From Burkholderiaceae bacterium (GTDB lineage: Bacteria; Pseudomonadota; Gammaproteobacteria; Burkholderiales; Burkholderiaceae_F): DNA of 64,000 nucleotides. A program made the position numbers and the translations under genes. Position 1 is the stretch's first letter; each line of letters starts with the position of its first letter. The stretch is from assembly GCA_035511515.1 (NCBI GenBank), contig DATKFG010000077.1, forward strand, positions 1,834 through 65,833, read 5' to 3'. Below are positions 1-16,725 of the stretch, piece after piece. The notes below the pieces were generated by a model. That model did no database searches, had not been told where the DNA came from, and saw only the letters and a program-made list of their open reading frames with translations.

Positions 1-3
1 GCC

Positions 4-807
4 ATGGAAGCGATGGAACGGGAAACAGGACGGGAATTCAAGACCGTTCGCAATGCGCTGGTCGGAGAATGGCAAACCGCCTATTCCGACGAAGCCCGCG
101 CCTGCATCGGAAAGACGACTGAGGCGATCCTGGCGCAACTTGCCTATCCCGGCCACGGCCCGCAAGCCGGCTCGGATCGGGTGTTCGAGGATTATCGCGG
201 CATCCTGGCGCGCACCCTGCCGGAACGCCTCGTCGCGGCCGCCGCCGACTTCCTGCTCAGAACCGAGGCCGGTGCGGCGCCTGCCCCGGCGCAGATCGCG
301 GCCTTCGTCACGGAGGCGGATCTGTCGGGCTGGCCGCTGTTGCAGCTGGCGGCGGTGGCCGAGGCGATCTACTACGTGCAGCGCACCTTCTCCGACACCT
401 CCGTGCCCCAGGCCAGAGCCGCGCTGAATGCCTTCGTCAACCTCAACCTGCTCTTTCTCGACGAGCACGCGGTCCAGGTCGCCGCCTGCCTGGGCCTGCA
501 GCGCCTGCAGGATGAACTGGGCGTTGAGCTGTTGTCCCGAATGGCGCCCCCGGACGCCCCGGAGCAGGAGCGGGCGCAAAGCGACATCGAGCTGATCGAG
601 GAAGGGATCTTCGGTTTGAACATCGTTCGCTACTCGGATCGCTTCTACGCGATCCCGCAGAGCGAAGGCGAGTTCTCAGCCGATCGCTTTGCCGCCGGTC
701 GATACAGCCGGACTGCGTCCGGCCGGTCCGTCGCGGAGATCAAGATGCGGCTGCTTCGGGTTCAGGCAGATCCCGAGGTTCGAGGCGACCCGGCTCGCGG
801 CTCGTAA
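4..807 (+). CDS. hypothetical protein (function unknown; may be 5'-truncated by the window edge)
   Basis: 267-aa ORF. The frame is open back to nt 1. GC3-rich codon usage like the neighbours and a balanced composition. No family recognised. The 3' end overlaps the convergent gene 762..1511 by 46 nt. Confidence 0.5.
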   Translation: MEAMERETGREFKTVRNALVGEWQTAYSDEARACIGKTTEAILAQLAYPGHGPQAGSDRVFEDYRGILARTLPERLVAAAADFLLRTEAGAAPAPAQIAAFVTEADLSGWPLLQLAAVAEAIYYVQRTFSDTSVPQARAALNAFVNLNLLFLDEHAVQVAACLGLQRLQDELGVELLSRMAPPDAPEQERAQSDIELIEEGIFGLNIVRYSDRFYAIPQSEGEFSADRFAAGRYSRTASGRSVAEIKMRLLRVQADPEVRGDPARGS

Positions 808-1511
808 GCCGCCAGATCCTCGGCGCTGTCGACTTCGCCCCACTGACCTCGATAGGGAACACCCGTCACCGGCACCCGCCCCGCCTCGATCACCATCTGC
901 AGCGTGGCGGTCATGTGCATGCGGTCGCGCTGCTCGGCCGTCAGGCCGCTTCGGATCCGTTTCACCTCGTCCCAGCCTTCGGCCGTGAAGCGCAGCAGCC
1001 CCATGTACTGCCCCTGGACGGCATCGATCGACTCCGGTCGATTGCCGATCTCGGCCAGGGTGCCGTCGGCGTTGATGCGAAAAGTCTCGGCGTCGGCGAG
1101 CGGATCGGCGAAGCGCCGCTCCCACAGCAGCCGCCAGTTTGGATCGTAGGTTACGGCGATGGGCGCAGTACTTCGCATCAGCGAGGTCACGGCGCCTGCG
1201 TCGAAGAAGATGTCTGAATAGCTGACGATGCAGGGCCCGCCGCGCAGCCAGGCTTCGGCGCAGCACAGGGACGCAACCATGTTGGTCGCCTCCCAGCGCG
1301 CATTGTGGAACTCCACCAGACCGCGCGTCACCAGCAGCTCCCGGCGGTAGCCCGTGACGACCGCCACATCGCGGATGGCCGCTGCGCGCAGCGCAGCCAG
1401 CTGCCAGTCGAGCAGCGGCTTGCCCCACAGTTCGACCAGGCATTTCGGGCGGTCCTCGGTCAGGCTTTTCATCCGGCGGCCGCGACCGGCCGCAAGAACG
1501 ATTGCTTTCAT
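762..1511 (-). CDS. nucleotidyltransferase (NTP-transferase fold); candidate CTP:phosphoglutamine cytidylyltransferase (Cj1416-like)
   Basis: 249 aa. N-terminal MKAIVLAAGRGRRM nucleotide-binding signature. Last gene of the minus-strand cassette 5801->762. Confidence 0.85.
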   Translation of the reverse strand: MKAIVLAAGRGRRMKSLTEDRPKCLVELWGKPLLDWQLAALRAAAIRDVAVVTGYRRELLVTRGLVEFHNARWEATNMVASLCCAEAWLRGGPCIVSYSDIFFDAGAVTSLMRSTAPIAVTYDPNWRLLWERRFADPLADAETFRINADGTLAEIGNRPESIDAVQGQYMGLLRFTAEGWDEVKRIRSGLTAEQRDRMHMTATLQMVIEAGRVPVTGVPYRGQWGEVDSAEDLAAYEPRAGSPRTSGSA

Positions 1512-1568
1512 GAAGAGGCGGCGCTAACCCGCCGCAGCCGGCACCAGAGCGCCGGGAGCGCGGTGGAT

Positions 1569-2174
1569 TCAGGTTGCATGCAGAAGCCCTCTGGCGCGCT
1601 CGATGTCGGCCCGCTCCAGCGTCGGCTCGCGCTCCGGGTGCCACATCCAACCCTCCCAGCGCAGCGACCGGTGCCGTATGGCCTCGATTTCGCCGTCCGC
1701 GCTGCGCGCCAGCACCTCGAATCCGTCCGGGCACGCCGCCAGCGCAAGGTCGTGGTAGCTGTTGACGTCGCGGGCGATCGCACCGGACACGGCATGGCGG
1801 GCCCGCACGTGGCCGGCTACCGATCGCAGTTCAGCGCCGGCGCGCACGCCAATCATCTGCATGCCACGGCAGATTCCCAGCACGGGCAGGTTTTGCCGTT
1901 CGGCGGCGTCGAGCAGGCCGCGCTCGGTCAGGTCGCGCGCCGGGCACTGGCCGATATCGTTGCCGCCGGAGAGCACGACCGCTGTCGGCCTGACCGCGGC
2001 GATCCAGCGCGCGAACGGGTCCGCGCCTGGCGCCGCCACCCAGCGATTCGGTACCGGAACCGGCAGACAGCCGGCCGCCAGCAGAAAGTCATGAAGCCGC
2101 TGGTCCAGCGCGTCCCGCCATTCACCCCGTTCCGGCCAGGCGTCGACGCGCTGGCTGACCGCGACCAGCTTCAC
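1569..2174 (-). CDS. class-I glutamine-amidotransferase-like / peptidase C26 hydrolase; candidate gamma-glutamyl-CDP-amidate hydrolase (Cj1417-like)
   Basis: The track ORF runs 1569..2429, but its first 85 aa are Arg/Gly-rich and overlap the upstream gene. GTG at 2174 (VKLVAVSQRV) forms a GTGA overlap with the upstream stop. Motifs LGICRGMQ (Cys nucleophile) and WHPE. Confidence 0.8.
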   Translation of the reverse strand: MKLVAVSQRVDAWPERGEWRDALDQRLHDFLLAAGCLPVPVPNRWVAAPGADPFARWIAAVRPTAVVLSGGNDIGQCPARDLTERGLLDAAERQNLPVLGICRGMQMIGVRAGAELRSVAGHVRARHAVSGAIARDVNSYHDLALAACPDGFEVLARSADGEIEAIRHRSLRWEGWMWHPEREPTLERADIERARGLLHAT

Positions 2175-4498
2175 GCGAGCACTTCGACGCGGCGGCCGGC
2201 GCAGTCCAAGTGCAGCCGCTGAGCCTCGGACCATCGACGATAGAGAACCTCGCCCGCTCCGATGACCGCCGGCAGACCGATTTCGCCGGCGCGGATTGCC
2301 ATGTGCGAGTTGGCGCCGCCCCACGCCGTAATGAGTCCGGCAATCGGGTGCGCGAACAGCCAGTCGAACCCCGGGTCGGCATTCGGGATGCAAACGATCG
2401 CCCCGGCCAGGTGCTCGCGGAAATCGCACCCGACCACGCGAGCCGCGACCTCACGCTGCGTGATGTAGTTGGGCGCCGTCTCCGGCCATTCAAAAGCCCA
2501 GACGTCGTCCGGGCGCGAGATCAACGGGGGCAGCGAAATCTTCAGGGTTTCGGCGTGGCGCGCCTTGCCCTGCTCGATGCTGCGACGCAGGACATCCTTC
2601 GAGTCCGCCCCGGCGACGTGCAGCTCCTTGAAGGCGGACACATCGCAGAACGCAATGTCCTCGCGTGCGATCCCCCAGCGCTCGCCCACTTCGGCCATCA
2701 GCACCAGGGCGTCGGACAGATTGCGGGTGAAATGGAATTTGGCCAATTCGCGCAACTCGATCCCGGCCTGCAGGAAATCGAACAGTCCGACCGGATCGGG
2801 CTGCAGGCCGTGCATTTCGAGCAGTTTGACCACTTCGCGCATCTGCGGCAGCGTCAGCGAAAACGGTTTGACGGGTACGGGTGCTTGCGGGCGCCGTTCC
2901 CAGTCGAAATACAGTTCCGGCGTCTCGTCGTAGCGCGGGGAAAGAATGTCGTAGGTGCCCGGGCGCAGGTGCCCGTAGCGGGCCAGAAACGCCCCCTTGT
3001 CGAGCGTCGCGCGGTCACGCGCCAGCTGGCCGCTCACGGTGGAAACCCCCCCGATGAAGGCGTCGAAGTCCGAATGCGAGAACACCCCGACCGCCACCAG
3101 CGACTTGAGCATCTGCACCGCCACGAATCCGGCGCGCGCCAGCCCGGCGAACGGCAAGGTGCCATAGCGCTTGGCGTCCTCCAGCAGCCAGTAGATCCGC
3201 TCCAGGGCGTCGGCGGACGATCCCAGCAGCTGCTCGCGCCGGCGGTTGAGCACTTCGAGTTTGGCCTGGTCAGCCCGCCACAGACCTTCCTTCGGATGCA
3301 CGATGCGATTGGTCAGGGTGCGCAGGCTGTTCGCGATCGTCTCGCGTTCCTGCCGCGTGAAACCGGCCTGGCCCAGCCGCTCAAGGCGTTCAGGCAGATC
3401 CAGCGTGTAGCACGAGAAGACGATCTCGAACTCGACCTTGTCGTGCAGGGTCGGCTCCGCCAGCAGCCGGTCGATGTAATGGTCCACGAGCCGTCCGGCA
3501 AGGCTTTCGTCCAGGTCGGCCGGAATGAAGGAATTGAACGACAGGCGAACGTCGACGTAGGGCAGGCCGAAGAAGTGCGGCATCAGTGGGAAGCTGCGCA
3601 GATTGCGATAGCCGTAGTTGTGGCGCTGATAGGCCCATATCGAGTCCGTAATCAGGTCGCGATACAACGACAGGGCGAGCGGGCGCGGCCGGATACCGAC
3701 GATCTCCGCCGGATTCCAGTCGGGCATCACGCCATACACCGTGCGCCGACCCATCAGGAAGGGATGGGGCTGCATGCCGCGCGCCACCTTGTCGTGGATG
3801 CGTCGCAGACGCTCCGCCTGGACGGCCGCCGGTTCAGGGTCCTGCGGCAGAAACAGCGCACGCGCCTGCAGGAGCCACAGCGTCTCGCCGTGCGCCTCGC
3901 GGGTGACCGCGAATTCGCAATCGACCGGAAGGTGGCCGAACAGCGAGAGCAGCTCCTCCAGCAGGGCGACAATCGGCGCGAAGAGCGGCTCGGGCGCGAC
4001 CGGCGCGTTGGCGGCTTGTTGCCAGACGCGGCCACCGGCCCCGCCGGTTACCGCGCTCGTGTCGCTGCCTTCGGTCCAGTTCACGACTCGGTAAGGCGCG
4101 CTCGTGCTCGGGTCGTGCGAAAAAGCGACGCCGGAACGGCATACCCCTTGCAGCATCGGCTGCACGAGGACTTCGTCGGAAGGATCGGCCTCGCCGTAGG
4201 AAGCGATGACCCTCTCGATCGCCGATTGCAGGTTCTCGCCGGTCACACCCGGCACCGACAGATACGCGCCCGCTTTCGACTGGCCGGCGCCGTCCTCGCG
4301 CAGGCAGCTGGAGCGGACGATCCAGGGCCCCTGTCCGACCTCGATCCAGACGCGCTTGTGGCAGCCTGGCCGGTCGAGCCGCCACTGCTCGACGGTGAAG
4401 TGAACCAGCGGCGCGATGCGGGCGCTCTGGATCCGGCCCGCAAGCGATTCGAGCGTGCGCGCCTTGGTCAGAAACGGCAGAGCCGCGCTGCGTTCCAT
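2171..4498 (-). CDS. PPDK/PEP-synthase-like three-domain phosphotransferase; candidate L-glutamine kinase (Cj1418-like)
   Basis: ATG at 4498 (MERSAALPFLTKART) lies inside the 913-aa track ORF. N-terminal PPDK_N-like region (SSCLREDGAGQSKAGAYLS). C-terminal PEP-utilizer swivel domain with phospho-His motif GGANSHMAIRAGEIGLPAV. 775 aa. Confidence 0.85.
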   Translation of the reverse strand: MERSAALPFLTKARTLESLAGRIQSARIAPLVHFTVEQWRLDRPGCHKRVWIEVGQGPWIVRSSCLREDGAGQSKAGAYLSVPGVTGENLQSAIERVIASYGEADPSDEVLVQPMLQGVCRSGVAFSHDPSTSAPYRVVNWTEGSDTSAVTGGAGGRVWQQAANAPVAPEPLFAPIVALLEELLSLFGHLPVDCEFAVTREAHGETLWLLQARALFLPQDPEPAAVQAERLRRIHDKVARGMQPHPFLMGRRTVYGVMPDWNPAEIVGIRPRPLALSLYRDLITDSIWAYQRHNYGYRNLRSFPLMPHFFGLPYVDVRLSFNSFIPADLDESLAGRLVDHYIDRLLAEPTLHDKVEFEIVFSCYTLDLPERLERLGQAGFTRQERETIANSLRTLTNRIVHPKEGLWRADQAKLEVLNRRREQLLGSSADALERIYWLLEDAKRYGTLPFAGLARAGFVAVQMLKSLVAVGVFSHSDFDAFIGGVSTVSGQLARDRATLDKGAFLARYGHLRPGTYDILSPRYDETPELYFDWERRPQAPVPVKPFSLTLPQMREVVKLLEMHGLQPDPVGLFDFLQAGIELRELAKFHFTRNLSDALVLMAEVGERWGIAREDIAFCDVSAFKELHVAGADSKDVLRRSIEQGKARHAETLKISLPPLISRPDDVWAFEWPETAPNYITQREVAARVVGCDFREHLAGAIVCIPNADPGFDWLFAHPIAGLITAWGGANSHMAIRAGEIGLPAVIGAGEVLYRRWSEAQRLHLDCAGRRVEVLA

Positions 4499-5247
4499 CA
4501 GCGCAGCTGAGCGACCCAGACGTTGGTGGAATAAGGAATCGATATCGTCGCCTTGTACAGGCCCAGCAGATACTCCTCGATCGCCGAGACCACCGCCGCG
4601 AAGGAGGCGCCCGCCTGCCGCTCCAGCGTCGCATGCGACCGCCAGGCTTGCACGCACTGTGCGATGGTCTGCTCGTGAACGACGCGCGAATCGATATGGA
4701 CGACCGGCCCGAACAGCCCACTGTCGTCGATCACGGACGTCTGGTCCTGCCGGCGTGTTCCGTACCCGTACGCCGGCATGCGCTGCCGGATGATGGACTC
4801 TATTTGCTCCTGGATCGGATCGTCCAAGTGCCGGTTGTTCCACATACAGGCGAACCAGCCGCGCGGTTTGAGGATGCGCGCCGTTTCCCTGAGCGCCGCC
4901 GGCCGATCGCACACGTTGAAGGAGCTTCCGAACGTGACCATCTTGTAAGCGCGCGGGGCCTGCCCCGTCTTCTCTCCGGTGCCCTCATGCCAGCGCACGT
5001 TCGCCAGAGCGGCGGTCCTTCCGATGCCGTTGGCACGCATGGCTTCGTTGGGCTCGACCGCGGTCACATCCAGCCCCCGCTGAGCCAGCATCCGTGTCAG
5101 GTGAGCCACTCCGGCTCCCACGTCGCAGACCTTGTCGCCCTTCATGGCCGCCGCGATCGAGAGCATCGCATCGATGGCTGCGTCCGAGTAGTCCGGACGC
5201 ATCAGGTAGGCGTCGGCGAGCGCGGTGTAGTCCCAGTCGGTTTTCAT
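4498..5247 (-). CDS. class I SAM-dependent methyltransferase
   Basis: Start at MKTDWDYTALADAYL (ATG 5247, ATGA overlap with the upstream stop). SAM motif I VCDVGAGVAHLT. 249 aa. Confidence 0.85.
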   Translation of the reverse strand: MKTDWDYTALADAYLMRPDYSDAAIDAMLSIAAAMKGDKVCDVGAGVAHLTRMLAQRGLDVTAVEPNEAMRANGIGRTAALANVRWHEGTGEKTGQAPRAYKMVTFGSSFNVCDRPAALRETARILKPRGWFACMWNNRHLDDPIQEQIESIIRQRMPAYGYGTRRQDQTSVIDDSGLFGPVVHIDSRVVHEQTIAQCVQAWRSHATLERQAGASFAAVVSAIEEYLLGLYKATISIPYSTNVWVAQLR

Positions 5248-5801
5248 GCGTCCTGCATCCCGAAGAGTTGATCCATCAGTTCGTCCGCCATGGCCGCAAC
5301 GTCGCGGCCCGGCGCAAACGCCAAGGTGCAGTCCGGTTCGTCCGGCTCGTCGATCGGAATATCCAGGCCCGCCACGTCCCGCAGCTCGCCCGCGTCGAAG
5401 CGGCGGTAGATCCCCTTGGCGTCGCGCCGGCGCAGTTCCTCGACAGGCACCTTCAGGTAGACCTCGAAGTAGCCGGGCAGGTGCGCCCGGTTCCAGGCAT
5501 GCACCTCCCGGAACAGGGAAATGGTGGCGATGACGACCGTGTGGTCCTGGGCCGCGATCGTCCGGCACAGGCGCGCATACTGCATCGCGAGCATCAGACG
5601 GCTGCCGCGATCGTGATTCCCGGCCGCCGCAACGTCGGCACCGACGACAGCCCGCAATTCGTCACCGTCGAGGAAGACCACCTGCTCCCCCCGGGCGCGA
5701 AGCCGTCCGACCACTGCGCGCGCCAGCGTGGTCTTGCCGGCACCCGACAGACCCGTGATCCAAATGACCCGTGAGCCGCGCTGCGCGCGCGAATCCGGCA
5801 T
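5244..5801 (-). CDS. adenylylsulfate-kinase-fold kinase; candidate cytidine diphosphoramidate kinase (Cj1415-like)
   Basis: ATG at 5801 (MPDSRAQRGSRVIWITGLSGAGKTTLA) is preceded by AGGAG. P-loop GLSGAGKTT and the overall APS-kinase pattern. Confidence 0.85.
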   Translation of the reverse strand: MPDSRAQRGSRVIWITGLSGAGKTTLARAVVGRLRARGEQVVFLDGDELRAVVGADVAAAGNHDRGSRLMLAMQYARLCRTIAAQDHTVVIATISLFREVHAWNRAHLPGYFEVYLKVPVEELRRRDAKGIYRRFDAGELRDVAGLDIPIDEPDEPDCTLAFAPGRDVAAMADELMDQLFGMQDA

Positions 5802-6014
5802 GAAGGCGCTCCTGTCCGCTCGTGACTGTCCGGTCCGGGCAAGGCTCGAGGCCGCCGGACCCATACCCGGCTGCCGATATCAGGGATCATCTGTCAACGA
5901 GCGGGCCCGGAGGATCTGAAAAGACCGCTCAAGCTTGGCCATTTCATGCCGATAGCGCGCATTGCGCGCGCCGTGCCCCGCCAACGATTCCAGTGGTCCC
6001 GGCGGCGCGCCGGT

Positions 6015-7484
6015 TCAGTGGCCGGTGGACGGCGCGCGCAATGCCCGTTGAAGACGCTCGGTGACGAGCGAGACCGCAGCGGCCCATCCTGCTCCCGGCG
6101 GCCGCCGCGCGAGCTGGGCCGTTTCATACCAGGGAGCGGCTGCCGATTGGGTCTGCCATTTCCAGTCGGGCGCTGCCGGCAGCAGCAACTGCAGCGGCGT
6201 GCCGATGGCTCCGGCCAGGTGCGCGCCGGCCGTGTCCACGCTGACCACCGCGTCGAGCAAACCGACCACGGCGGCGGTGTCCTCGAAGCTTTCGATCGGA
6301 CGTGGCAGCTCGCGCAGCCCCGGCAGCTCGCTGCGCGCCGCCTCCGCGGCCCGCCCCAGGTTCAGGTTGTAGACCTCCAATCCGCTTGCCTGAACGAGCG
6401 CAAGCAGGTCGGCGGCGGCGCATGAACGCCGGGTGAAGGGATTTTCCTCGGTCGAGTGAGCCACGGAGGTCGCGTGAACGATACCGATCCGGGGAGCCGA
6501 ACCGGGGCTGCAGGCCAGGGCCGAGGACCACTGCGCGCGCCTGAACGGGTCGCACGACAGATAGGCCGGGCGGGCTGCGGTCGCATCGGGCAGCTGCAGC
6601 ACCAGCGGAAGGCTCATCAGGGGCAGGTGCGCGTCGTGCTGCGGCCAATGGCGCGGGTCCTCGGAAACGCATTCGATCCTCAGGCTGCGGCCGATCAGTG
6701 CGGCCAGCGAGTCTGCGCAGGCCAGGGTCAGCCGCTCGCATTGAGCCGCGGCCTCGCGCAGGAATCGTGCAAAAAGGATCGTGTCGCCGAGCCCCTGCTC
6801 GGCCAGCACGAGCAGATGCCGGACCGGCCGGCCGTCCCAGCGCGGCGTGCTCGGGCAGCGCAGATGGACCACGCCAGCAGCAAAGCGCTGCTCGTAGTCC
6901 AGCCAGCCCTCGGCCAGGCGGCCCAGTCGAAGCAGGCACAGCGAGCGGTTGTAACGGTGCACCGGGTTGCCGGGCCGCAGGCGCAGCAGCTCGTCGAAGT
7001 GCGACAGCGCACGCTCGTGCTGGCATTGGAAGCCCGCCAGGCGGGCGGCCGCCAGGTGGGCCACCTCGGAGGCGGAGTTGGCCGCCAGCAGGTCTGCGCA
7101 AAGCGCCCCGGCTTCCTCCTGTCCGCCCTGGGCGACCAGGGCGTCGATCAGGCCCGACGTGGCCGCCTCGCTCGCCGGGATCCGCTGCAGAATCTGCCGG
7201 AAATTGGCCTCGGCCGCCGCCGGCTGCTGCAGCCTCAGGCACAAGCGTCCCATCAGGAGGCGCGACAGCAGATCGGTCGGGTCGAGGCGCAGCGCGCCGT
7301 CGATGGCCTCCAGTGCCTCGGACAGACGCCGTAGCTGGAACAGCGCGTAGCCGAGACCGCGCAGCGCGTCGACCGACCCGGGCGCCAGCTCGAGCGCTTG
7401 CGCATAGGCGAGCCGCGCCTCGTCGAAGCGGTACGCCTCGATCGCCCGCTGGCCGCGCGTCAGACAATCAGTCGCCTGGTACAT
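6015..7484 (-). CDS. TPR-repeat protein fused to a GT-B glycosyltransferase domain (GT9/heptosyltransferase-like); candidate flagellin glycosyltransferase
   Basis: 489 aa. N-terminal TPR repeats (AYAQALELAPGSVDALRGLGYAL...). C-terminal domain with the EQGLGDTILFARF motif. The start overlaps the preceding flagellar gene by 17 nt. Confidence 0.8.
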   Translation of the reverse strand: MYQATDCLTRGQRAIEAYRFDEARLAYAQALELAPGSVDALRGLGYALFQLRRLSEALEAIDGALRLDPTDLLSRLLMGRLCLRLQQPAAAEANFRQILQRIPASEAATSGLIDALVAQGGQEEAGALCADLLAANSASEVAHLAAARLAGFQCQHERALSHFDELLRLRPGNPVHRYNRSLCLLRLGRLAEGWLDYEQRFAAGVVHLRCPSTPRWDGRPVRHLLVLAEQGLGDTILFARFLREAAAQCERLTLACADSLAALIGRSLRIECVSEDPRHWPQHDAHLPLMSLPLVLQLPDATAARPAYLSCDPFRRAQWSSALACSPGSAPRIGIVHATSVAHSTEENPFTRRSCAAADLLALVQASGLEVYNLNLGRAAEAARSELPGLRELPRPIESFEDTAAVVGLLDAVVSVDTAGAHLAGAIGTPLQLLLPAAPDWKWQTQSAAAPWYETAQLARRPPGAGWAAAVSLVTERLQRALRAPSTGH

Positions 7485-7806
7485 GCGGGATATCCGGGTG
7501 CGGGCCGGCCGGCACGGCGCTGCGATCGGCTTCGAGCCGGTAGGCCCAGGCCAGCACCTCCGCGATCGCCACGTACAGGGCGGCGGGAATGTGCTGGTCC
7601 AATTCGAATTGCATCAGCGCGGCCACCAGCTCGTGCGATGCGTGGATCGGTACGCCGCTTTCGCGGGCGCTGCGCAGGATCTGCTCGGCCAGCGCGCCCT
7701 CGCCCTTGGCGACGATGCGCGGCGCCCGGTCGGTTTCCGCCTGGTAGCGCAGCGCAGCCGCCTGCGCGGGCGGCTTGGTCGGGCTGCGCCCGCCGTCGGC
7801 CATCAT
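7468..7806 (-). CDS. stand-alone FlhB/YscU C-terminal (post-cleavage) domain protein
   Basis: 112 aa from MMADGG inside the 436-aa track ORF. AAALRYQAETDRAPRIVAKGEGALAEQILRSARESGVPI...LYVAIAEVLAWAY aligns to the FlhB cytoplasmic domain after the NPTH site. No TM segments. ATGA overlap with the upstream gene. Confidence 0.8.
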   Translation of the reverse strand: MMADGGRSPTKPPAQAAALRYQAETDRAPRIVAKGEGALAEQILRSARESGVPIHASHELVAALMQFELDQHIPAALYVAIAEVLAWAYRLEADRSAVPAGPHPDIPHVPGD

Positions 7807-8561
7807 GGTCCTCGCGCCGGCTCCATGCCGACGTGGGCTGATACCAGGCCCTGGGCCGACAGCGCGCGCTGCAGCTCGGCCAGCCGCGGCCGCACCGCCC
7901 CCGGGTCGGCGCAACCGACCACGACCGCCACGGTGCTGCCGCACACGCGGATATCGGCGTCGAACCGGCCCAGGTGCGGCAGCTCCAGGTGCAGCCTCGC
8001 GCAGCGCACCGCCGGTTCCGGCGTGTCGCCACCGGATGCCGTGCGGGAGGCGTCCGGGCCCACTTCGAGGCAGGCCGTCGGGTTCAGCCAGGGCAGCGCG
8101 ATCGATTCGGCCGGTGCCCGATCGCGCGCCGAGGCCGAGGGCGACTGCCACAGCACGCCGGGCGCGGGCGGCGGCCGCGAGGGCGCCGAGCCCTCCGGCG
8201 TCGAGGCGGATCGTTCGTCGCCGGCCACGGGCGCGGGGCGGTTCGACACCGGCTCCGTTGGCCGCCGTCCGACCAGCGCCGCCAGCACCGCGTTGCGGGC
8301 CGCCTGCGTCAGCACATAGTGGCCCGATCCGGTGGCAATTTCGGCCACCTGGCGATCGGGCGACACGATCAGATCGACCGAGTGACCCGCTGTCGCGGCC
8401 CGCTGCAGGTCCGACAGCAACGCGCGCGACACCGGCATCCCGCGCAGCAGCTCCAGCAGGCGCGCCGGATCGACAGGCAGGCGAAGGCCGGCCTCGGGCG
8501 CCGCGGAATTCCACGCGTCGGTCCACGCCACCGCCCCCAACCCGAGCACTGCGGAGTCCAT
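7803..8561 (-). CDS. FliK C-terminal (Flg_hook/T3S4)-like domain protein
   Basis: 252 aa. Pro/Ser-rich middle region. The C-terminal LHLELPHLGRFDADIRVCGSTVAVVVGCADPGAVRPRLAELQRALSAQGL resembles the FliK switch domain. Sits between fliT and the FlhB-C-like gene. Confidence 0.6.
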   Translation of the reverse strand: MDSAVLGLGAVAWTDAWNSAAPEAGLRLPVDPARLLELLRGMPVSRALLSDLQRAATAGHSVDLIVSPDRQVAEIATGSGHYVLTQAARNAVLAALVGRRPTEPVSNRPAPVAGDERSASTPEGSAPSRPPPAPGVLWQSPSASARDRAPAESIALPWLNPTACLEVGPDASRTASGGDTPEPAVRCARLHLELPHLGRFDADIRVCGSTVAVVVGCADPGAVRPRLAELQRALSAQGLVSAHVGMEPARGP

Positions 8562-8582
8562 GGTCGGTCCCTGTGTCGTGCG

Positions 8583-8933
8583 TCAACCGGCCGGATCGGT
8601 GCCGGGCGGCACTCCGATCAGGCGTTCCAGCTCCAGCAGCCAGGGTTCGGAGCGCATCCGGATCTGTGCGTCGGCCCGCAGAATGTCGCGCAGCAGCTCG
8701 ATGCGGCGCTGCTGCTCGACCGCGTTCAAGGGCTCGATCGAGGCGGCCTGCTTCAGGCCCTCGATCCGGTCCCGGCACTTCGTTTCCAGGCGCGCGACCT
8801 CATCCCAGTCTTCGCGGTGCGCGGCGGTCAGCATGTCGCGGCTGAGCTGCGCGACCTCCTGGTAGCGTTCGATCAGGCGGTGCGATGCATCGCCGGCACC
8901 TGCGCGCCACGCATGGCTGTCGTCAGGCGCCAT
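8583..8933 (-). CDS. fliT: flagellar export chaperone FliT
   Basis: 116-aa helical protein immediately after fliS. FliT-like sequence (REDWDEVARLETKCRDRIEGL). Confidence 0.75.
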   Translation of the reverse strand: MAPDDSHAWRAGAGDASHRLIERYQEVAQLSRDMLTAAHREDWDEVARLETKCRDRIEGLKQAASIEPLNAVEQQRRIELLRDILRADAQIRMRSEPWLLELERLIGVPPGTDPAG

Positions 8934-9365
8934 TCAGGCGGCTCGCGCGCGAGAAGCGCTCGCGCCGATCTGGGCCCATGCGGCGCGCAGGTCGGACAAC
9001 AGCGTGCACGCTTCCTCCAGGGCCCGGCGGTCGTTGCGCAGATTCGCCTGCAACAGCCGCATCGTGATGTAGTCGTACAACGAAACCAGCTTCTCCGCCA
9101 GCTGGCCGCCGGCCTCGCGGTCGACGCTGGCCTTCAGCCCTTCCTCGACGATGCGCAGCGCCTTGCCGATCGCCTCGCACTTGGCGGCGACGCGGCGCGT
9201 TCCCATGTGCGCCACCGCGAGGCGGATCGCCTCGATCGCGCCGTCGTACAGCAGCAGCGTCATCCGGTGCGGATCGGCCGACCCGACGGCCGTCTGCACC
9301 GCAACATTCTGATAGGCCTTGGCCCCGAATCCAGACACCTGCGCCTCCCGGCTACCGAGCTCCAT
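8934..9365 (-). CDS. fliS: flagellin-specific chaperone FliS
   Basis: 143 aa. AKAYQNVAVQTAVGSADPHRMTLLLYDGAIEAI is a typical FliS N-terminus. Lies downstream of fliD. Confidence 0.9.
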   Translation of the reverse strand: MELGSREAQVSGFGAKAYQNVAVQTAVGSADPHRMTLLLYDGAIEAIRLAVAHMGTRRVAAKCEAIGKALRIVEEGLKASVDREAGGQLAEKLVSLYDYITMRLLQANLRNDRRALEEACTLLSDLRAAWAQIGASASRARAA

Positions 9366-9433
9366 TCCCTATTTCGGCGCCCCCGAGCACCCGGTTTAGC
9401 CCGGGCAGCAGCCGTTAAGCCGCGGAAAACCGG

Positions 9434-10981
9434 TCAAGCCGGCAGGCCCGCCAGCGCGTTGGCCAGCGCGACCTGGTTCTCCTGCGCGACGACCAGATCG
9501 CTGTTCAGTTTGCTGTACTGCGCGATCAGGCGCTGCTGGGTCTGGTCGAGCTGGGTCTGCATCTGCGCCATCTGGTCGTTCATCGAGGTAATGGTCGACT
9601 GCAGGCTGGTCTGCGTTCCCCCCAGCAGGCCGGTGGGCGAGAGCATCGTTTCGACCGACGAGGACAGCTGAACCGCGAACCCTTGCTGGCTTCCGGTGCC
9701 GGTCGCGTTTGAAAACAGCTGCGCCACCGCTGTCGGGTTGGCCGACAGCGCCGAACCGAGCTTGCTCGTGTTCAGGCTCAGCGTTCCGTTCGCCTGGAAA
9801 TCGATGCCCACGTCCGCCAGCCATGAAAGGCCCGTCACGCCGCTGACCTGGCTTCCCAGGATCGAGCGCAGTTGCGAACTGAGCGCGAACATCGAGGCAT
9901 CGCCGGTCAAGGTCGACGGCGTGTTGGTGCTGGAGTTGTACGAGGTCAGACTGTTTTCGACGTTGACCAGGCTGTTGTAGGCCTGGACGAAGTTGTTCAC
10001 GCTGGTGCTGACCGCGCTGTTGTCGCTGCCGACGGTGATCTGCGCCTGCAGCGTCGAGGCGGGCGCCGGCGCTTGTGTCAGGTTCAGCGTCAGGCCGCTG
10101 ATGGCGGTAGTGATCGAATTGGTCGAAGACGTCAACGGCAATCCGTTGATGCTGTACAGGGCATCGGCGGCCGGCTGGGTCTGGGTCAGGTTCTTGCCGG
10201 CACCAGCGGTCGCGGTCGGATCGAACGCCAGTTGCGACAACCCGGAGGTGTTCGTGTTGGTGCCGTCGGCGTCCGCCACCGTCAGCATGAACTGGTTGGC
10301 GGTGCCGGTGCTGCTCGACGTCAGCACCAGGCGGCTGCCGAAGTTGTCGGTCACGATCGAGGCATTGACGCCGGCCGCGGCGCTGTTGATCGCGGCCGCA
10401 ATTCCGCCCAGCGTGTTGTTGCCCGAGTTGATCGTGATATTGACCGGGCTCGACCCCGACTGGGCGGTGAACGTGTTGGTGCCGGAGGTATAAGTGCCCA
10501 GCTGGATCGTCAGCGTGCCGGTGCCCACCACCGTGGAGGCACTGGCGAGCGGCGCCGAGGCCGTGGCCTGCGCCTGGGCAATGGCCGACACGATCACCGA
10601 GTAGGAGCCCGCTGCCGGCGAACCGGTCACCGTCGCGCCGACCCCGGTGCCGGTCACGGTGGCCTGCGAGGCGGTGAACGCAGAGCTCGTCTTCAGCGCC
10701 GTCACCGCGGTGTCGAGACTGGACAGCGCGCTTTGAACCTGTCCGAAAGCGCTCAGCTTGGACTGGACACCCGATTCCTGCGACTTCAGCTGTGTCAGGG
10801 GCTGCGACTCGACCGTCATCAGCTCGCTCACCAGCGTGTTCACGTCGATCGGACCGGTGCTGATCGGGCTGCCGGTCAGCGACGTGCTCGGGCTGCTGGT
10901 TCCGTTGGACGAGTTCACCCCGTTCAGCGTGCTCGACAGCAGCGAGGCGAGCGAGTTGGAGGTCGTGCTCCCGATGGTCAT
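9434..10981 (-). CDS. fliD: flagellar filament cap protein FliD
   Basis: 515 aa. Ser/Thr-rich, with FliD-type N- and C-terminal helical regions (LTQLKSQESGVQSKLSAFGQVQSAL; QRLIAQYSKLNSDL). Confidence 0.9.
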   Translation of the reverse strand: MTIGSTTSNSLASLLSSTLNGVNSSNGTSSPSTSLTGSPISTGPIDVNTLVSELMTVESQPLTQLKSQESGVQSKLSAFGQVQSALSSLDTAVTALKTSSAFTASQATVTGTGVGATVTGSPAAGSYSVIVSAIAQAQATASAPLASASTVVGTGTLTIQLGTYTSGTNTFTAQSGSSPVNITINSGNNTLGGIAAAINSAAAGVNASIVTDNFGSRLVLTSSSTGTANQFMLTVADADGTNTNTSGLSQLAFDPTATAGAGKNLTQTQPAADALYSINGLPLTSSTNSITTAISGLTLNLTQAPAPASTLQAQITVGSDNSAVSTSVNNFVQAYNSLVNVENSLTSYNSSTNTPSTLTGDASMFALSSQLRSILGSQVSGVTGLSWLADVGIDFQANGTLSLNTSKLGSALSANPTAVAQLFSNATGTGSQQGFAVQLSSSVETMLSPTGLLGGTQTSLQSTITSMNDQMAQMQTQLDQTQQRLIAQYSKLNSDLVVAQENQVALANALAGLPA

Positions 10982-11005
10982 GGTCCGCCCTTGAAAGCGT
11001 CGTCT

Positions 11006-11356
11006 TCAGGCCTTGCCGCGCAGCAGGGTGCCGCGCGTCGATGCTCCCGACAACGCGCGCGCCGCGGCCAGCATCTCGTCGGACGGTACCTGCCGAATCA
11101 CCGTATTCGTTCGGGTGTCGACAATCTTGACCAACATCCGTCCCAGCTTATCGTCGAAAACAAACGTCAATTCTCGGTTACTCTGATCGAGCTGCTGGTT
11201 GGCCGCTGCGACCGCAGCCTTCAGCTCGGCAAGTGTCGGGGCAGCCACGCTCTGCTGGGGCTCGGAGTGCGCCGGCACCGCGGCCGCGGAGGATTTCGGG
11301 TTGGCACCCACGGCGACGCCCGGGGCGGCCTGCGCCGCCGGCATATCGACCGTCAT
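11006..11356 (-). CDS. flaG: flagellar protein FlaG
   Basis: C-terminal NRELTFVFDDKLGRMLVKIVDTRTNTVIRQVPSDEML is FlaG-like. Start set at ATG 11356 (MTVDM, AGGA about 7 nt upstream). The track start at 11476 lies upstream of the sigma28 promoter at 11439-11465. ATG 11386 is an alternative. Confidence 0.75.
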   Translation of the reverse strand: MTVDMPAAQAAPGVAVGANPKSSAAAVPAHSEPQQSVAAPTLAELKAAVAAANQQLDQSNRELTFVFDDKLGRMLVKIVDTRTNTVIRQVPSDEMLAAARALSGASTRGTLLRGKA

Positions 11357-11438
11357 TGAGTGTCCTACCGGACCGATGTTTTGCATGATGCAACGAAGAC
11401 TCTCGAAACCGGAACGCCTGCTCACCGCCCTCCTCTGA

Positions 11439-11465
11439 GATTCGGCAGCACCGGCGCCGACTTTA
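11439..11465 (-). promoter_or_regulatory. sigma28 (FliA)-type promoter for flaG-fliD-fliS-fliT...
   Basis: The minus strand reads TAAAGTCG-N11-GCCGAATC. Compare the enteric consensus TAAAGTTT-N11-GCCGATAA. Confidence 0.6.
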
Positions 11466-11503
11466 GTCCCGCTCACGGGATGGGGCTCCGATCCGGACGG
11501 GCC

Positions 11504-11533: not shown

Positions 11534-11574
11534 CTGTCGTGCGTCGGGCCGCGGTGCGCGGCCCGGGTGCCGGC

Positions 11575-13330: not shown

Positions 13331-13347
13331 GCCGACGGGGTGATCCA

Positions 13348-16715: not shown

Positions 16716-16725
16716 GGCGGCGACC

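What the first reader, a model, noticed from the sequence alone, without database searches (positions are those of the whole stretch)
762..5801. Complete Campylobacter-type phosphoramidate (MeOPN) donor pathway at the tail of a flagellar filament gene array
What the sequence shows: five co-directional minus-strand genes with coupled start/stop codons (ATGA at 5244-5247, TGATG at 4496-4500, GTGA at 2171-2174).
- An APS-kinase-fold protein (P-loop GLSGAGKTT).
- A class-I SAM methyltransferase.
- A 775-aa PPDK/PEP-synthase-like enzyme with swivel phospho-His motif GGANSHMAIRAGE.
- A C26/class-I-GATase-like hydrolase (GICRGMQ, WHPE).
- An NTP-transferase (LAAGRGRRM).

Established knowledge: this four-enzyme combination plus a methyltransferase was defined biochemically in C. 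jejuni. The steps are Cj1418 (L-glutamine kinase), Cj1416 (CTP:phosphoglutamine cytidylyltransferase), Cj1417 (gamma-glutamyl-CDP-amidate hydrolase) and Cj1415 (CDP-amidate 3'-kinase), with Cj1419/Cj1420 methyltransferases. Together they build the PAPS-like donor for O-methyl phosphoramidate on capsule sugars.

Context here: no capsule genes are in view. The cassette lies 213 nt downstream of, and on the same strand as, the array that runs from fliC and flaG-fliDST to the TPR-glycosyltransferase.

Inference: a phosphoramidate, possibly O-methylated, decorates the flagellin glycan or another surface glycan in a GC-rich non-epsilon proteobacterium. I am not aware that this has been described. 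No Cj1421/1422-like MeOPN transferase is recognisable. The unknown convergent ORF 4..807 and the TPR-GT 6015..7484 are the candidates.
Basis: partly seen in the sequence, partly recalled or inferred. Interest (0 to 1): 0.85.

Follow-up and report, generated by a model that had tools for sequence, protein, structure and literature searches.

The report
Phosphoramidate-donor gene cassette beside flagellin genes
A soil Burkholderiaceae bacterium carries, at the end of its flagellar filament operon, the five-gene pathway that Campylobacter uses to make a rare phosphorus-nitrogen sugar decoration; the same cassette occurs in many other bacteria, often beside a sulfotransferase-like protein, so this chemistry is probably not confined to Campylobacter.

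Summary
Five co-directional minus-strand genes (APS-kinase-like, SAM methyltransferase, 775-aa PEP-utilising-type kinase, class-I amidotransferase-like hydrolase, nucleotidyltransferase) lie at the stated coordinates, with the stated start/stop overlaps and motifs.

The 775-aa protein is a full-length member of NCBIfam NF004508 (967 bits, cutoff 501), not a PEP synthase. The kinase falls in subfamily NF004041. The hydrolase's best NCBIfam match is the gamma-glutamyl-CDP-amidate hydrolase model, below its cutoff.

The cassette keeps one gene order in 62 of 70 adequately flanked loci from many phyla. Natural fusions join the big kinase to each of the other three donor enzymes.

Sulfotransferase-like or TagF-like proteins, and sometimes a CysQ-like 3'-phosphatase, flank the cassette elsewhere. 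Flagellin genes lie within 10 kb in 7 of 81 loci.

Best reading: a PAPS-like (methyl)phosphoramidate donor pathway, probably decorating the flagellin O-glycan laid down by the adjacent OGT/SPINDLY-like TPR glycosyltransferase. Acceptor, transferase and product are inferred. No Campylobacter sequence could be compared directly.

The parts
1..807 (+). 3' part (last 267-268 codons) of a 784-aa gene for a protein with two tandem sulfotransferase-fold domains and a helical C-terminal domain (called ST784 here). It is convergent with the cassette and overlaps it tail-to-tail by 46 bp. It is the candidate phosphoramidate transferase.
   Evidence: The full gene is seen on metagenome contig L001. Pfam Sulfotransfer_1 E=3e-24, two stretches. 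Internal duplication. The family profile hits cytosolic PAPS sulfotransferases in the PDB at about 1e-19. The AF2 model (pLDDT 77.8) matches PAP/PAPS-bound SULTs at probability 1.00. Homologues or other sulfotransferase-like proteins flank the cassette in more than 19 other loci.
762..1511 (-). Nucleotidyltransferase, 249 aa: predicted CTP:phosphoglutamine cytidylyltransferase (Cj1416 role).
   Evidence: Pfam NTP_transf_3 5.6e-18. G9-x-G11-x-R13 and K23 are 100% conserved among 71 cassette homologues. Present in 72 of 80 related loci, median identity 65%. NT-GlnK fusions occur in at least 17 family representatives. Substrate specificity is inferred.
1569..2174 (-). Class-I glutamine-amidotransferase / peptidase C26-like hydrolase, 201 aa: predicted gamma-glutamyl-CDP-amidate hydrolase (Cj1417 role).
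   Evidence: The best NCBIfam hit of 18,950 models is NF045546, gamma-glutamyl-CDP-amidate hydrolase (E=3e-25, 89 bits, below the 250-bit cutoff). Cys102, His179 and Glu181 are 100% conserved in 37 homologues. GTGA overlap with the upstream gene.
2171..4498 (-). 775-aa PEP-utilising-type kinase (GlnK) with an ATP-grasp-like N-terminus, a large middle domain and a C-terminal swivel phospho-His domain: predicted L-glutamine kinase (Cj1418 role).
   Evidence: NCBIfam NF004508 (PRK05849) 966.8 bits against a 501-bit cutoff, aligned end to end; PEP synthase and rifampicin phosphotransferase models score 35 bits or less. His732 and 69 other positions are at least 97% conserved in 114 diverse representatives. 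1,545 clusters (50% identity) at E<1e-30.
4498..5247 (-). Class-I SAM-dependent methyltransferase, 249 aa, translationally coupled on both sides: predicted O-methylation of the phosphoramidate, on the donor or after transfer.
   Evidence: Pfam Methyltransf_11/25. ATGA and TGATG overlaps. The slot is filled in 73 of 80 loci by one of two MT types, about 75% or about 30% identical; both are Methyltransf_11. Orthology to Cj1419/Cj1420 not tested.
5244..5801 (-). APS-kinase-fold P-loop kinase (APSK), 185 aa: predicted cytidine diphosphoramidate 3'-kinase (Cj1415 role).
   Evidence: NCBIfam NF004041 (PRK05541 subfamily) 202 bits against a 127-bit cutoff. The canonical APS-kinase model TIGR00455 scores 102 bits, below its 138.7-bit cutoff. 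The P-loop and D45-G46-D47 are 100% conserved. APSK-GlnK fusions exist (P0125, P0138, P0180, P0188).
5802..6014 (-). 213-nt intergenic gap between the flagellar operon's last gene and the cassette.
   Evidence: No sigma-70-like or sigma-28-like promoter and no terminator-like site was found. The transcriptional link to the flagellar operon is unresolved.
6015..7484 (-). TPR + GT-B glycosyltransferase (TPR-GT), 489 aa: probable flagellin O-glycosyltransferase that makes the acceptor glycan.
   Evidence: TPR Pfam hits and a faint Glyco_transf_9 hit. A homologue is named 'TPR-containing glycosyltransferase family protein' and many carry PF01075. The AF2 model (pLDDT 92.7) matches SPINDLY, OGT and Xanthomonas OGT at probability 1.00. 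Its start overlaps the stop of the FlhB-C-like gene.
7468..12405 (-). Flagellar filament array upstream on the same strand: fliC (11575-12405), flaG (11006-11356), fliD (9434-10981), fliS (8934-9365), fliT (8583-8933), FliK-like (7803-8561), FlhB-C-terminal-like (7468-7803).
   Evidence: Pfam assignments on identical metagenome contigs. Two sigma-28-type promoters lie upstream of fliC, with -10 boxes at 12765 and 12550.

Best explanation
The five genes are predicted to build a PAPS-like activated phosphoramidate by the route established for C. jejuni Cj1418, Cj1416, Cj1417 and Cj1415.

Proposed steps:
1. [quoted passage not shown]
2. The nucleotidyltransferase joins the product to CMP from CTP, giving CDP-L-glutamine.
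3. The Cys-His-Glu hydrolase removes glutamate, leaving cytidine diphosphoramidate.
4. The APS-kinase-like enzyme phosphorylates the 3'-OH.
5. The embedded methyltransferase supplies the O-methyl group.

In this Burkholderiaceae bacterium the donor is then most likely used in the cytoplasm to decorate the O-glycan that the adjacent TPR glycosyltransferase puts on flagellin. The transfer would be catalysed by the convergent two-domain sulfotransferase-fold protein, which binds the 3'-phosphonucleotide as sulfotransferases bind PAPS and releases cytidine 3',5'-bisphosphate.

Shown here: gene presence, family membership, conserved catalytic residues, conserved gene order, gene fusions, partner genes and folds. 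Inferred: every substrate, the transferase, the acceptor and the product.
For: Family assignment:
- GlnK matches NF004508 at 967 bits (cutoff 501), full length. APSK matches NF004041 at 202 bits (cutoff 127), while the canonical apsK model is below its cutoff. The hydrolase's top model is NF045546, gamma-glutamyl-CDP-amidate hydrolase.
- Catalytic residues are invariant: His732; Cys102/His179/Glu181, the NT G-x-G-x-R plus Lys23, and the kinase P-loop and DGD.

Functional coupling:
- APSK-MT-GlnK-GAT-NT keep the same order and strand in 62 of 70 loci with enough flank, from Beta-, Gamma- and Alphaproteobacteria, Nitrospira, Opitutia, cyanobacteria and others.
- GlnK is naturally fused to APSK-like, GAT-like or NT-like domains.
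- Start/stop overlaps are present.

PAPS-like logic:
- A CysQ-type 3'(2'),5'-bisphosphate nucleotidase (TIGR01331, 226.8 bits) sits inside the cassette in 9 loci.
- Sulfotransferase-like proteins sit directly beside the cassette in the window and in more than 19 other loci. These include TPR-sulfotransferase fusions directly upstream of APSK in L047 and L050, and two separate proteins in Azospirillum that match ST784 domains 1 and 2.
- ST784 keeps the 3'-phosphate-binding motifs RDPRDaavS and RKGisGeW and has the SULT fold.

Flagellar link:
- The cassette sits between the flagellar operon's TPR-GT and ST784.
- The TPR-GT model resembles SPINDLY and OGT.
- Flagellin genes lie within 10 kb in 7 of 81 loci, in at least four different architectures. 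Binomial P is about 4e-8 to 1e-3 for background rates of 0.4-2%.
- Some ST784 homologues carry TPR repeats.

Precedent: flagellin glycans in C. difficile and P. aeruginosa carry phospho-linked groups delivered from CDP donors (bioRxiv 10.64898/2026.02.12.704994).
Against: - No Campylobacter sequence was available, so identity to and reciprocal best hits with Cj1415-Cj1420 were not measured. That NF004508 and NF004041 are the Cj1418 and Cj1415 families rests on my memory of CDD assignments.
- The hydrolase is below the equivalog cutoff (89 vs 250 bits). NT and MT are assigned only to broad families.
- In 74 of 81 loci no flagellin gene is nearby. In about 20 Pseudomonas genomes the cassette plus one TagF-like gene sits among unrelated housekeeping genes. 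The acceptor therefore clearly differs between lineages and may not be flagellin here.
- The 213-nt gap has no recognisable promoter, and the cassette's G+C is lower than that of the flagellar genes (0.65-0.67 vs 0.71-0.75). This fits an inserted island whose position could be incidental.
- ST784 domain 1 resembles true PAPS sulfotransferases, so it could simply sulfate something. APSK, CysQ and a sulfotransferase together also fit a sulfation module.
- The fold of the known MeOPN transferases Cj1421/Cj1422 is unknown to me.
Confidence: 0.55

Rival explanations
1. The same donor pathway operates, but the acceptor is another glycoconjugate (LPS core or O-antigen, EPS, capsule) or a non-flagellar protein. 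The position next to the flagellar operon reflects where a mobile island landed.
For: - Most related loci have no flagellar genes. Many sit in sugar-nucleotide or polysaccharide clusters with epimerases, DegT aminotransferases, AsnB and GTs.
- The Vibrio plasmid copy lies in a PEP-CTERM EPS cluster.
- The cassette's G+C is lower than that of its flagellar neighbours.
- GlnK is 78-81% identical across classes, which suggests horizontal transfer.
- The 213-nt gap has no promoter signal.
- Xanthomonas campestris LOS carries a phosphoramide (PMC8042644), so LPS acceptors exist in nature.
Against: - The cassette is sandwiched between a flagellar-operon-coupled protein O-GT and ST784.
- Linkage to fliC recurs in independent architectures well above chance.
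- TPR-sulfotransferase fusions point to a protein substrate, and one lies between fliC and the cassette in L050.
- No LPS or capsule genes lie within about 25 kb in the window.
Confidence: 0.25
2. The locus contains a sulfation module. The APS-kinase-like enzyme makes PAPS from APS, ST784 sulfates the flagellin glycan or another acceptor, and CysQ-like enzymes elsewhere recycle PAP. The glutamine-kinase-like, hydrolase, NT and MT genes then do something separate.
For: - ST784 domain 1 aligns with PAPS sulfotransferases and keeps the 3'-phosphate motifs.
- The kinase has the APS_kinase fold.
- cysD, cysN and a SLC13 permease lie next to the Vibrio plasmid copy.
- A true Campylobacter sulfation cluster has this logic (PMC8743553).
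Against: - No ATP sulfurylase is in the window or recurs in the 80 loci. True sulfation clusters carry cysDN (PMC8743553).
- The kinase scores below cutoff on the canonical apsK model and above cutoff on the separate NF004041 subfamily.
- It is fixed in gene order with GlnK in 62 of 70 loci and is fused to GlnK in four representatives.
- ST784's 5'-phosphosulfate-loop lysine is replaced (LQNSGSS against PKSGTTW). This comparison with the SULT motif rests on my knowledge of sulfotransferases.
Confidence: 0.1
3. The cassette makes a soluble phosphoramidate metabolite (a nucleotide-type natural product or signalling molecule), not a surface decoration.
For: In Pseudomonas the island holds only the five genes plus one extra gene, with no glycan genes nearby. 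P-N natural products are known (PMC6429109).
Against: - No exporter, resistance or peptide-precursor gene recurs with the cassette.
- The recurring partners are transferase-type proteins (sulfotransferase-like, TagF-like), glycosyltransferases and sugar-nucleotide enzymes.
Confidence: 0.05
4. The 775-aa protein is an ordinary PEP synthase, PPDK or rifampicin-phosphotransferase-type enzyme, and the gene neighbourhood is coincidental.
For: Pfam sees only the PPDK_N and PEP-utilizers domains. Annotation pipelines call homologues 'PEP-utilizing enzyme' or 'phosphoenolpyruvate synthase'.
Against: PEP synthase, PPDK and Rph models score 16-35 bits and only on the roughly 70-residue swivel domain, against 967 bits full-length for NF004508. 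No PDB relative was found at E<=0.001. The four partners are strictly co-conserved and fused.
Confidence: 0.02

Closest known systems
C. jejuni O-methyl phosphoramidate (MeOPN) donor pathway: Cj1418 L-glutamine kinase, Cj1416 cytidylyltransferase, Cj1417 gamma-glutamyl-CDP-amidate hydrolase, Cj1415 CDP-amidate 3'-kinase, with Cj1419/Cj1420 methyltransferases nearby (PMC11800397, PMC6429109)
   Same: - The same four enzyme folds plus a class-I MT in one co-directional cluster.
- The hydrolase's best family model is the one built for Cj1417.
- The swivel His, the Cys-His-Glu triad, the P-loop and the G-x-G-x-R motif are all present.
- The core order MT-kinase-hydrolase-NT matches the Cj1419-1418-1417-1416 order (from my memory of the gene numbering).
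   Different: - The host is a GC-rich soil betaproteobacterium.
- There is no capsule (kps) locus.
- The APS-kinase-like gene lies at the front rather than the end.
- There is one MT, not two.
- The hydrolase is below the equivalog cutoff.
- No Cj1421/1422-type transferase is recognisable; a sulfotransferase-fold protein is the partner.
- The context is flagellar.
PAPS / sulfotransferase / CysQ system (sulfate activation and transfer)
   Same: The donor carries a 3'-phosphate added by an APS-kinase-fold enzyme. The partner proteins have the sulfotransferase fold with 3'-phosphate-binding motifs. A CysQ-type 3'-phosphatase is embedded in some cassettes. The whole logic is parallel.
   Different: There is no ATP sulfurylase. 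The nucleotide is predicted to be cytidine and the transferred group a phosphoramidate. The lysine of the 5'-phosphosulfate loop is absent in ST784 domain 1.
Flagellin post-glycosylation modification in C. difficile (Type A; FgtA + FtaABCD) and P. aeruginosa b-type (PA1088-PA1091) (bioRxiv 10.64898/2026.02.12.704994; PMC10714395)
   Same: A flagellin O-GT sits next to a small operon with a cytidylyltransferase and a methyltransferase that makes a CDP-activated, methylated donor. A phospho-linked group is then added to the flagellin sugar. TagF-like transferases accompany the cassette in many other genomes (families F5 and F30).
   Different: The donor there is CDP-(N-methyl)threonine and the bond is a phosphodiester. 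There is no glutamine kinase, hydrolase or 3'-kinase. In this window the candidate transferase is sulfotransferase-like, not TagF-like.
TPR-containing protein O-glycosyltransferases: flagellin GTs FlmG (Caulobacter, PMC7591256) and FlmQ (B. cenocepacia, PMC4462625); OGT and SPINDLY
   Same: The 489-aa protein at 6015-7484 has an N-terminal TPR superhelix and a C-terminal GT-B domain. It lies at the end of the fliC-fliD-fliS-fliT operon.
   Different: It is shorter than OGT or SPINDLY. Its catalytic domain is closest to GT9-type profiles. Its sugar and sites are unknown. Sequence relation to FlmG/FlmQ was not tested.
Phosphoramide on Xanthomonas campestris lipooligosaccharide core (PMC8042644)
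   Same: It is a P-N group on a surface glycoconjugate of a non-epsilon proteobacterium.
   Different: The acceptor is the LPS core mannose. The biosynthetic genes were not identified in the literature I could read, and no link to this cassette was tested here.

Membership tests
Campylobacter-type MeOPN donor pathway | L-glutamine kinase of the Cj1418 family: three-domain PEP-utilising-type enzyme with a C-terminal swivel phospho-His | tested here: met
   NF004508 equivalog, 966.8 bits against 501, positions 6-788 of 789. His732 in GGANSHM is invariant in 114 representatives. That Cj1418 itself belongs to NF004508/PRK05849 rests on my memory, not on a result here.
Campylobacter-type MeOPN donor pathway | gamma-glutamyl-CDP-amidate hydrolase (Cj1417): class-I GATase fold with a Cys-His-Glu triad | tested here: inconclusive
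   NF045546 is the top hit (E=3e-25) but scores 89 bits against a 250-bit cutoff. The triad Cys102/His179/Glu181 is 100% conserved.
Campylobacter-type MeOPN donor pathway | CTP:phosphoglutamine cytidylyltransferase (Cj1416) | tested here: inconclusive
   Only generic NTP_transf_3, GlmU and MurU-type hits, and no dedicated model matched. The role is inferred from fixed position in the cassette and NT-GlnK fusions.
Campylobacter-type MeOPN donor pathway | Cytidine diphosphoramidate 3'-kinase (Cj1415): APS-kinase fold, distinct from assimilatory CysC | tested here: met
   NF004041 (PRK05541 subfamily) 202 bits against 127; TIGR00455 apsK 102 bits, below 138.7. APSK-GlnK fusions exist. The link of Cj1415 to PRK05541 is from memory.
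Campylobacter-type MeOPN donor pathway | SAM methyltransferase(s) in the cluster (Cj1419/Cj1420) | tested here: inconclusive
   A class-I MT is present and translationally coupled. No Cj1419/1420 sequence or structure was available. Their function is unassigned even in C. jejuni (PMC11800397).
Campylobacter-type MeOPN donor pathway | Dedicated MeOPN transferase of the Cj1421/Cj1422 type | not testable with these tools
   No Cj1421/1422 sequence was obtainable. The ST784 search returned 37 relatives, none from Campylobacter.
Campylobacter-type MeOPN donor pathway | Direct sequence orthology (reciprocal best hits) to Cj1415-Cj1420 | not testable with these tools
   No PDB entries. The primary papers are not held. 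Cluster look-up of AT-rich representatives gave no organism names.
Campylobacter-type MeOPN donor pathway | Product: O-methyl phosphoramidate on a glycan | not testable with these tools
   Needs 31P-NMR or mass spectrometry.
PAPS-dependent sulfotransferase (SULT-type) - for ST784 | Sulfotransferase fold with 3'-phosphate-binding motifs (RxxRDxxxS and RKGxxGxW) | tested here: met
   Pfam PF00685 3e-24. PDB profile hits at 1e-19 with both motifs aligned. Foldseek probability 1.00 to PAP/PAPS complexes.
PAPS-dependent sulfotransferase (SULT-type) - for ST784 | 5'-phosphosulfate-binding loop with the catalytic Lys (PKxGTTW) | tested here: not met
   Domain 1 reads LQNSGSS, nearly invariant in the family (G53, S55, A56), with no Lys at the equivalent position. 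The canonical motif is quoted from my knowledge of SULTs.
Bona fide PEP synthase / PPDK / rifampicin phosphotransferase | Full-length match to the curated models | tested here: not met
   Best 35 bits against cutoffs of 456-1700, restricted to residues about 695-775. No PDB hit at E<=0.001.
TPR-type protein O-glycosyltransferase (OGT/SPINDLY/FlmG-like) - for 6015-7484 | N-terminal TPR superhelix plus C-terminal GT-B catalytic domain | tested here: met
   AF2 pLDDT 92.7 with 12 TPR-type helices followed by Rossmann-like beta/alpha units. Foldseek top hits are SPINDLY, OGT and XcOGT, probability 1.00. Activity on flagellin was not tested.

The most novel reading that the evidence does not exclude
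Sulfotransferase-fold proteins, here the two-domain ST784 and elsewhere TPR-fused versions lying between fliC and the cassette, are a previously unrecognised class of phosphoramidate transferases. They would use 3'-phospho-cytidine diphosphoramidate as sulfotransferases use PAPS, and would put a (methyl)phosphoramidate on flagellin, either on its O-glycan or directly on Ser/Thr/Tyr. On this reading, P-N decoration of flagella and other surface structures is widespread among environmental bacteria rather than a Campylobacter peculiarity.
Probability: 0.35. Interest if true: 0.85.

Novelty: new variant of a known kind. Interest (0 to 1): 0.7.

Why it matters
- MeOPN is treated in the reviews I could read as unique to Campylobacter capsules and its glutamine kinase as "C. 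jejuni-specific" (PMC6429109, PMC9561416). There it governs phage recognition and immune modulation.
- A conserved five-gene cassette in many phyla, including culturable Pseudomonas, Azospirillum, Janthinobacterium, Ensifer, Azonexus, Zoogloea and Marinobacter, would make P-N glycan chemistry a general bacterial trait.
- It would give tractable organisms in which to find the still-uncharacterised transfer and methylation steps.
- It would add a new type of flagellin modification that could affect phage adsorption and plant or animal immune recognition.
- It suggests an unexpected evolutionary reuse of the sulfotransferase fold and the CysQ recycling step for a cytidine-based donor.

Tried and rejected
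Direct comparison with Cj1415-Cj1422 (failed):
- The PDB holds none of these proteins.
- The four Raushel primary papers are not in the library.
- A guess at Campylobacter-like representatives by amino-acid composition, followed by cluster look-up, gave no organism names.

Other searches that led nowhere:
- Rfam scan of the whole window: nothing.
- Promoter and terminator scan of 1-7600: nothing useful. No sigma-28 motif in the 213-nt gap.
- Exact-protein look-ups for two other window genes failed, probably because of start-codon choice.
- A search for 'PRK05849' in the literature found nothing.

Readings rejected:
- PEP synthase or rifampicin phosphotransferase identity for the 775-aa protein.
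- The TPR-GT as phosphoramidate transferase: its fold is that of OGT and SPINDLY.
- The idea that the Campylobacter MeOPN transferases are the CDP-glycerol glycerophosphotransferase discussed in PMC8949473: that paper treats it as a different gene.

Left open:
- The three no-Pfam genes beyond the window start (321, 340 and 392 aa on L001) showed no profile similarity to the TagF-like or sulfotransferase-like partners. They remain unassigned, apart from a weak DUF707 hit for the 340-aa protein.

Full report
**1. The observation**

ORF listing and translation confirm five minus-strand genes:
- NT (nucleotidyltransferase) 762-1511, 249 aa
- GAT (GATase-like hydrolase) 1569-2174, 201 aa, GTG start
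- GlnK (the PPDK-like kinase) 2171-4498, 775 aa
- MT (methyltransferase) 4498-5247, 249 aa
- APSK (APS-kinase-like) 5244-5801, 185 aa

The three junctions read ATGA, TGATG and GTGA on the minus strand. The gap to the upstream TPR-glycosyltransferase is 213 nt. Pfam gives NTP_transf_3, Peptidase_C26/GATase, PEP-utilizers + PPDK_N, Methyltransf_11/25 and APS_kinase respectively.

Exact copies of the 775-aa protein occur on eight soil-metagenome contigs with the same gene order. Exact matches of other window proteins identify the source as an uncultured "Burkholderiaceae bacterium" MAG.

**2. What the enzymes are**

- *GlnK.* Against NCBIfam it matches NF004508 (PRK05849) end to end at 966.8 bits (cutoff 501). 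Every PEP-synthase, PPDK and rifampicin-phosphotransferase model scores 35 bits or less, and only on the C-terminal swivel domain. It has no PDB relative at E<=0.001.
- *APSK.* It passes the NF004041 (PRK05541) subfamily model (202 bits against 127) but not the canonical APS-kinase model TIGR00455 (102 bits against 138.7).
- *GAT.* Its best model among 18,950 is NF045546, "gamma-glutamyl-CDP-amidate hydrolase". It scores 89 bits against a cutoff of 250, so it is a relative rather than an equivalog.
- *NT and MT.* These can be placed only in broad families.
- *Catalytic residues.* His732 in GGANSHM, plus 69 other positions, is conserved in at least 97% of 114 diverse family representatives. The Cys102-His179-Glu181 triad, the NT G-x-G-x-R/Lys23, the kinase P-loop and DGD, and the MT SAM motif are 98-100% conserved among cassette homologues.

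**3. The five genes form a unit**

The GlnK family is very large. More than 7,200 proteins score E<=1e-10 in the 90%-clustered database, and the top 120 are all 78-81% identical. There are 1,545 clusters at 50% identity with E<1e-30.

A scan of one genome per species returned 80 loci. They come from Pseudomonas (fluorescens/putida/chlororaphis groups), Dechloromonas, Azonexus, Zoogloea, Janthinobacterium, Ensifer, Magnetospirillum, Marinobacter, Nitrospira, Opitutia, Cyanobium/Prochlorococcus, Leptospirales and others.

tblastn with the window's proteins gave these counts:
- 70 loci have enough flank to judge.
- 67 of them carry all five genes.
- 62 have them in the order and strand APSK-MT-GlnK-GAT-NT.

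The MT slot is filled by one of two class-I MT types.

Among GlnK relatives of 940 aa or more, the N-terminal extension is APSK-like in four, GAT-like in one and NT-like in at least seventeen. These fusions argue that all four enzymes act in one pathway.

**4. Partners of the cassette**

*The ORF at the window start.* The window's ORF 4..807 is the C-terminal third of a 784-aa protein (ST784), seen whole on contig L001.
- It has two tandem sulfotransferase-like domains.
- A profile of its 27 relatives hits cytosolic PAPS sulfotransferases at about 1e-19. The 3'-phosphate-binding motifs are kept (RDPRDaavS, RKGisGeW). The lysine of the 5'-phosphosulfate loop is absent.
- Its AF2 model (pLDDT 77.8) matches PAP/PAPS-bound SULTs at probability 1.00.

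*Sulfotransferase-like neighbours elsewhere.*
- ST784-type proteins lie directly beside the cassette in L007, L010, L034, L049, L052, L062, L074 and L077.
- A second sulfotransferase-like family (F17) does so in eight more loci.
- TPR-sulfotransferase fusions lie directly upstream of APSK in L047 and L050. In L050 the fusion sits between fliC and the cassette.
- On Azospirillum lipoferum plasmid AZO_p6, two separate sulfotransferase-domain proteins match ST784 domains 2 and 1.

*TagF-like neighbours.*
- In 22 loci, mostly Pseudomonas, the slot upstream of APSK instead holds a 396-aa protein (F5). By profile-profile comparison it is related to TagF-type CDP-glycerol glycerophosphotransferases (probability 88%, E=2.8e-6).
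- Recognisable TagF-like genes accompany the cassette in L013, L033, L060, L080 and a Vibrio plasmid.

*CysQ-like phosphatase.* In nine loci a CysQ-type 3'(2'),5'-bisphosphate nucleotidase (TIGR01331, 226.8 bits, cutoff 228.8) is inserted within or at the end of the cassette, in most of these loci between GAT and NT.

*How I read this.* A 3'-phosphorylating kinase, sulfotransferase-fold partners and a 3'-phosphatase together mirror the PAPS cycle. This fits the published proposal that 3'-phospho-CDP-amidate is the phosphoramidate donor (PMC11800397).

**5. The flagellar link**

- Upstream on the same strand lie fliC, flaG, fliD, fliS, fliT, a FliK-like gene, an FlhB-C-terminal-like gene and the TPR-GT. 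The TPR-GT start overlaps the preceding stop.
- Two sigma-28-type promoters precede fliC. The window from about 6 to 29 kb is flagellar.
- The TPR-GT model (pLDDT 92.7) matches SPINDLY, OGT and Xanthomonas OGT. It is therefore a protein O-glycosyltransferase by architecture, like the flagellin enzymes FlmG and FlmQ (PMC7591256, PMC4462625). It is an unlikely phosphoramidate transferase.
- Flagellin genes lie within 10 kb of the cassette in 7 of 81 loci: the window type, L026, L033, L035, L050, L076 and L080. L060 shares the L033 architecture on a truncated contig. These represent at least four different arrangements. For a background rate of 0.4-2% the binomial tail is 4e-8 to 1e-3. Relatedness of some loci makes this optimistic.
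- A precedent exists for phospho-linked decoration of flagellin sugars from CDP donors by a neighbouring small operon: C. difficile Type A and P. aeruginosa b-type (bioRxiv 10.64898/2026.02.12.704994).

**6. Limits**

- I could not obtain any Cj1415-Cj1422 sequence, so percent identities and reciprocal hits are missing. The link of NF004508 and NF004041 to Cj1418 and Cj1415 is from memory.
- The acceptor is inferred from context only. Most carriers have the cassette away from flagellar genes, so acceptors differ between lineages.
- The cassette's lower G+C and the promoter-less 213-nt gap leave open that it is an inserted island.
- ST784 could be a real sulfotransferase. Against that:
  - No ATP sulfurylase recurs with the cassette. 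It does in a true Campylobacter sulfation cluster (PMC8743553) and, as an exception, next to the Vibrio plasmid copy.
  - The kinase is locked to GlnK by gene order and by fusion.

**7. Novelty**

- The reviews I could read state that MeOPN sugars are known only from Campylobacter and call the glutamine kinase C. jejuni-specific (PMC6429109, PMC9561416).
- The only outside prediction I found is a structure-based note for archaeal Borg elements (10.1101/2024.11.05.622173).
- Searches for phosphoramidate on flagellin, or for the pathway in Pseudomonas, Burkholderia and others, found nothing.
- A phosphoramide is known on Xanthomonas LOS (PMC8042644).
- I rate this a new variant of a known kind. 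The donor chemistry is known. The host range, the probable flagellar context and the candidate transferase fold are new.

**8. Verdict**

| Question | Result |
|---|---|
| Observation | confirmed |
| Donor-pathway assignment | about 0.8 |
| Flagellin glycan as acceptor in this organism | about 0.5 |
| ST784 as transferase | about 0.45 |
| Overall confidence in the combined statement | 0.55 |
| Interest | 0.7 |

Noticed in passing
window 12540-12790 (minus strand), upstream of fliC: Two sigma-28-type promoter matches: TAAA-N15-GCCGATAA (-10 box starting at 12765, perfect) and TAAA-N16-ACCGATAA (starting at 12550). There is also a T-run (TTTTTTTT) between them.
   Followed up: partly
window 31008-36509: A small glycolipid or polysaccharide-type cluster about 25 kb from the cassette. 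On the minus strand: an unknown 310-aa protein, a LPG_synthase_TM-family membrane protein (329 aa) and a GT2 glycosyltransferase (400 aa). On the plus strand: UDP-glucose dehydrogenase (444 aa) and an NAD-dependent epimerase/dehydratase (323 aa). It could supply or modify a surface glycan.
   Followed up: partly
window 762-1511, codon 12: The window's NT has Arg at position 12 (GRGRRM), where about 99% of 70 cassette homologues have a different residue; the near-identical metagenome contig L001 reads GRGSRM. It is one of a few strain-level substitutions in the nucleotide-binding loop.
   Followed up: no
L001 16051-19239 (beyond the window start): Three co-directional genes follow the ST784 gene: 321, 340 and 392 aa. 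They have no Pfam or NCBIfam assignment apart from a weak DUF707 hit for the 340-aa protein. They may extend the flagellin-modification island.
   Followed up: partly
L087 (Azospirillum lipoferum 4B plasmid AZO_p6, NC_016588) 5659-18263: In this cassette variant the APS-kinase-like domain is the C-terminus of an 846-aa protein whose 640-aa N-terminal region is unassigned. It is followed by an Lcl_C/DUF1566 protein, two separate sulfotransferase-domain proteins and a histidine-phosphatase-family protein.
   Followed up: partly
L088 (Vibrio alfacsensis plasmid pVa1, NZ_CP032095) 3644-14007: cysD, cysN and a SLC13 permease lie divergently next to a 1002-aa GlnK relative with an unassigned 225-aa N-terminal extension, a GAT, an NT that is missing from the plasmid gene table, and a TagF-like gene. 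All sit inside a PEP-CTERM/XrtA exopolysaccharide cluster. This is the only locus seen where sulfate activation and the cassette are neighbours.
   Followed up: partly
L033, L035, L060, L080 (about 13.8-18.3 kb in each locus): A protein of about 1,480 aa combines a weakly sulfotransferase-like N-terminus (significant only in L035) with GT2 and GT1 domains. It lies between the cassette and fliC in Rhodocyclales-type loci (L060's contig ends before any fliC), together with a DegT aminotransferase and a TagF-like gene in L033, L060 and L080.
   Followed up: partly
Pseudomonas loci L016-L032, L039, L067: In the fluorescens-group genomes the six-gene island (TagF-like F5 plus the cassette) sits at one chromosomal site, between a comM/yifB-like gene and a methyl-accepting chemotaxis protein gene. 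No glycan genes are nearby, which looks like a discrete insertion.
   Followed up: no
window 1-8500 composition: The cassette (about 2.0-5.5 kb) has G+C of 0.65-0.67 and GC3 of 0.78-0.83. The adjacent flagellar genes have 0.71-0.75 and 0.84-0.89. This fits horizontal acquisition of the cassette.
   Followed up: no
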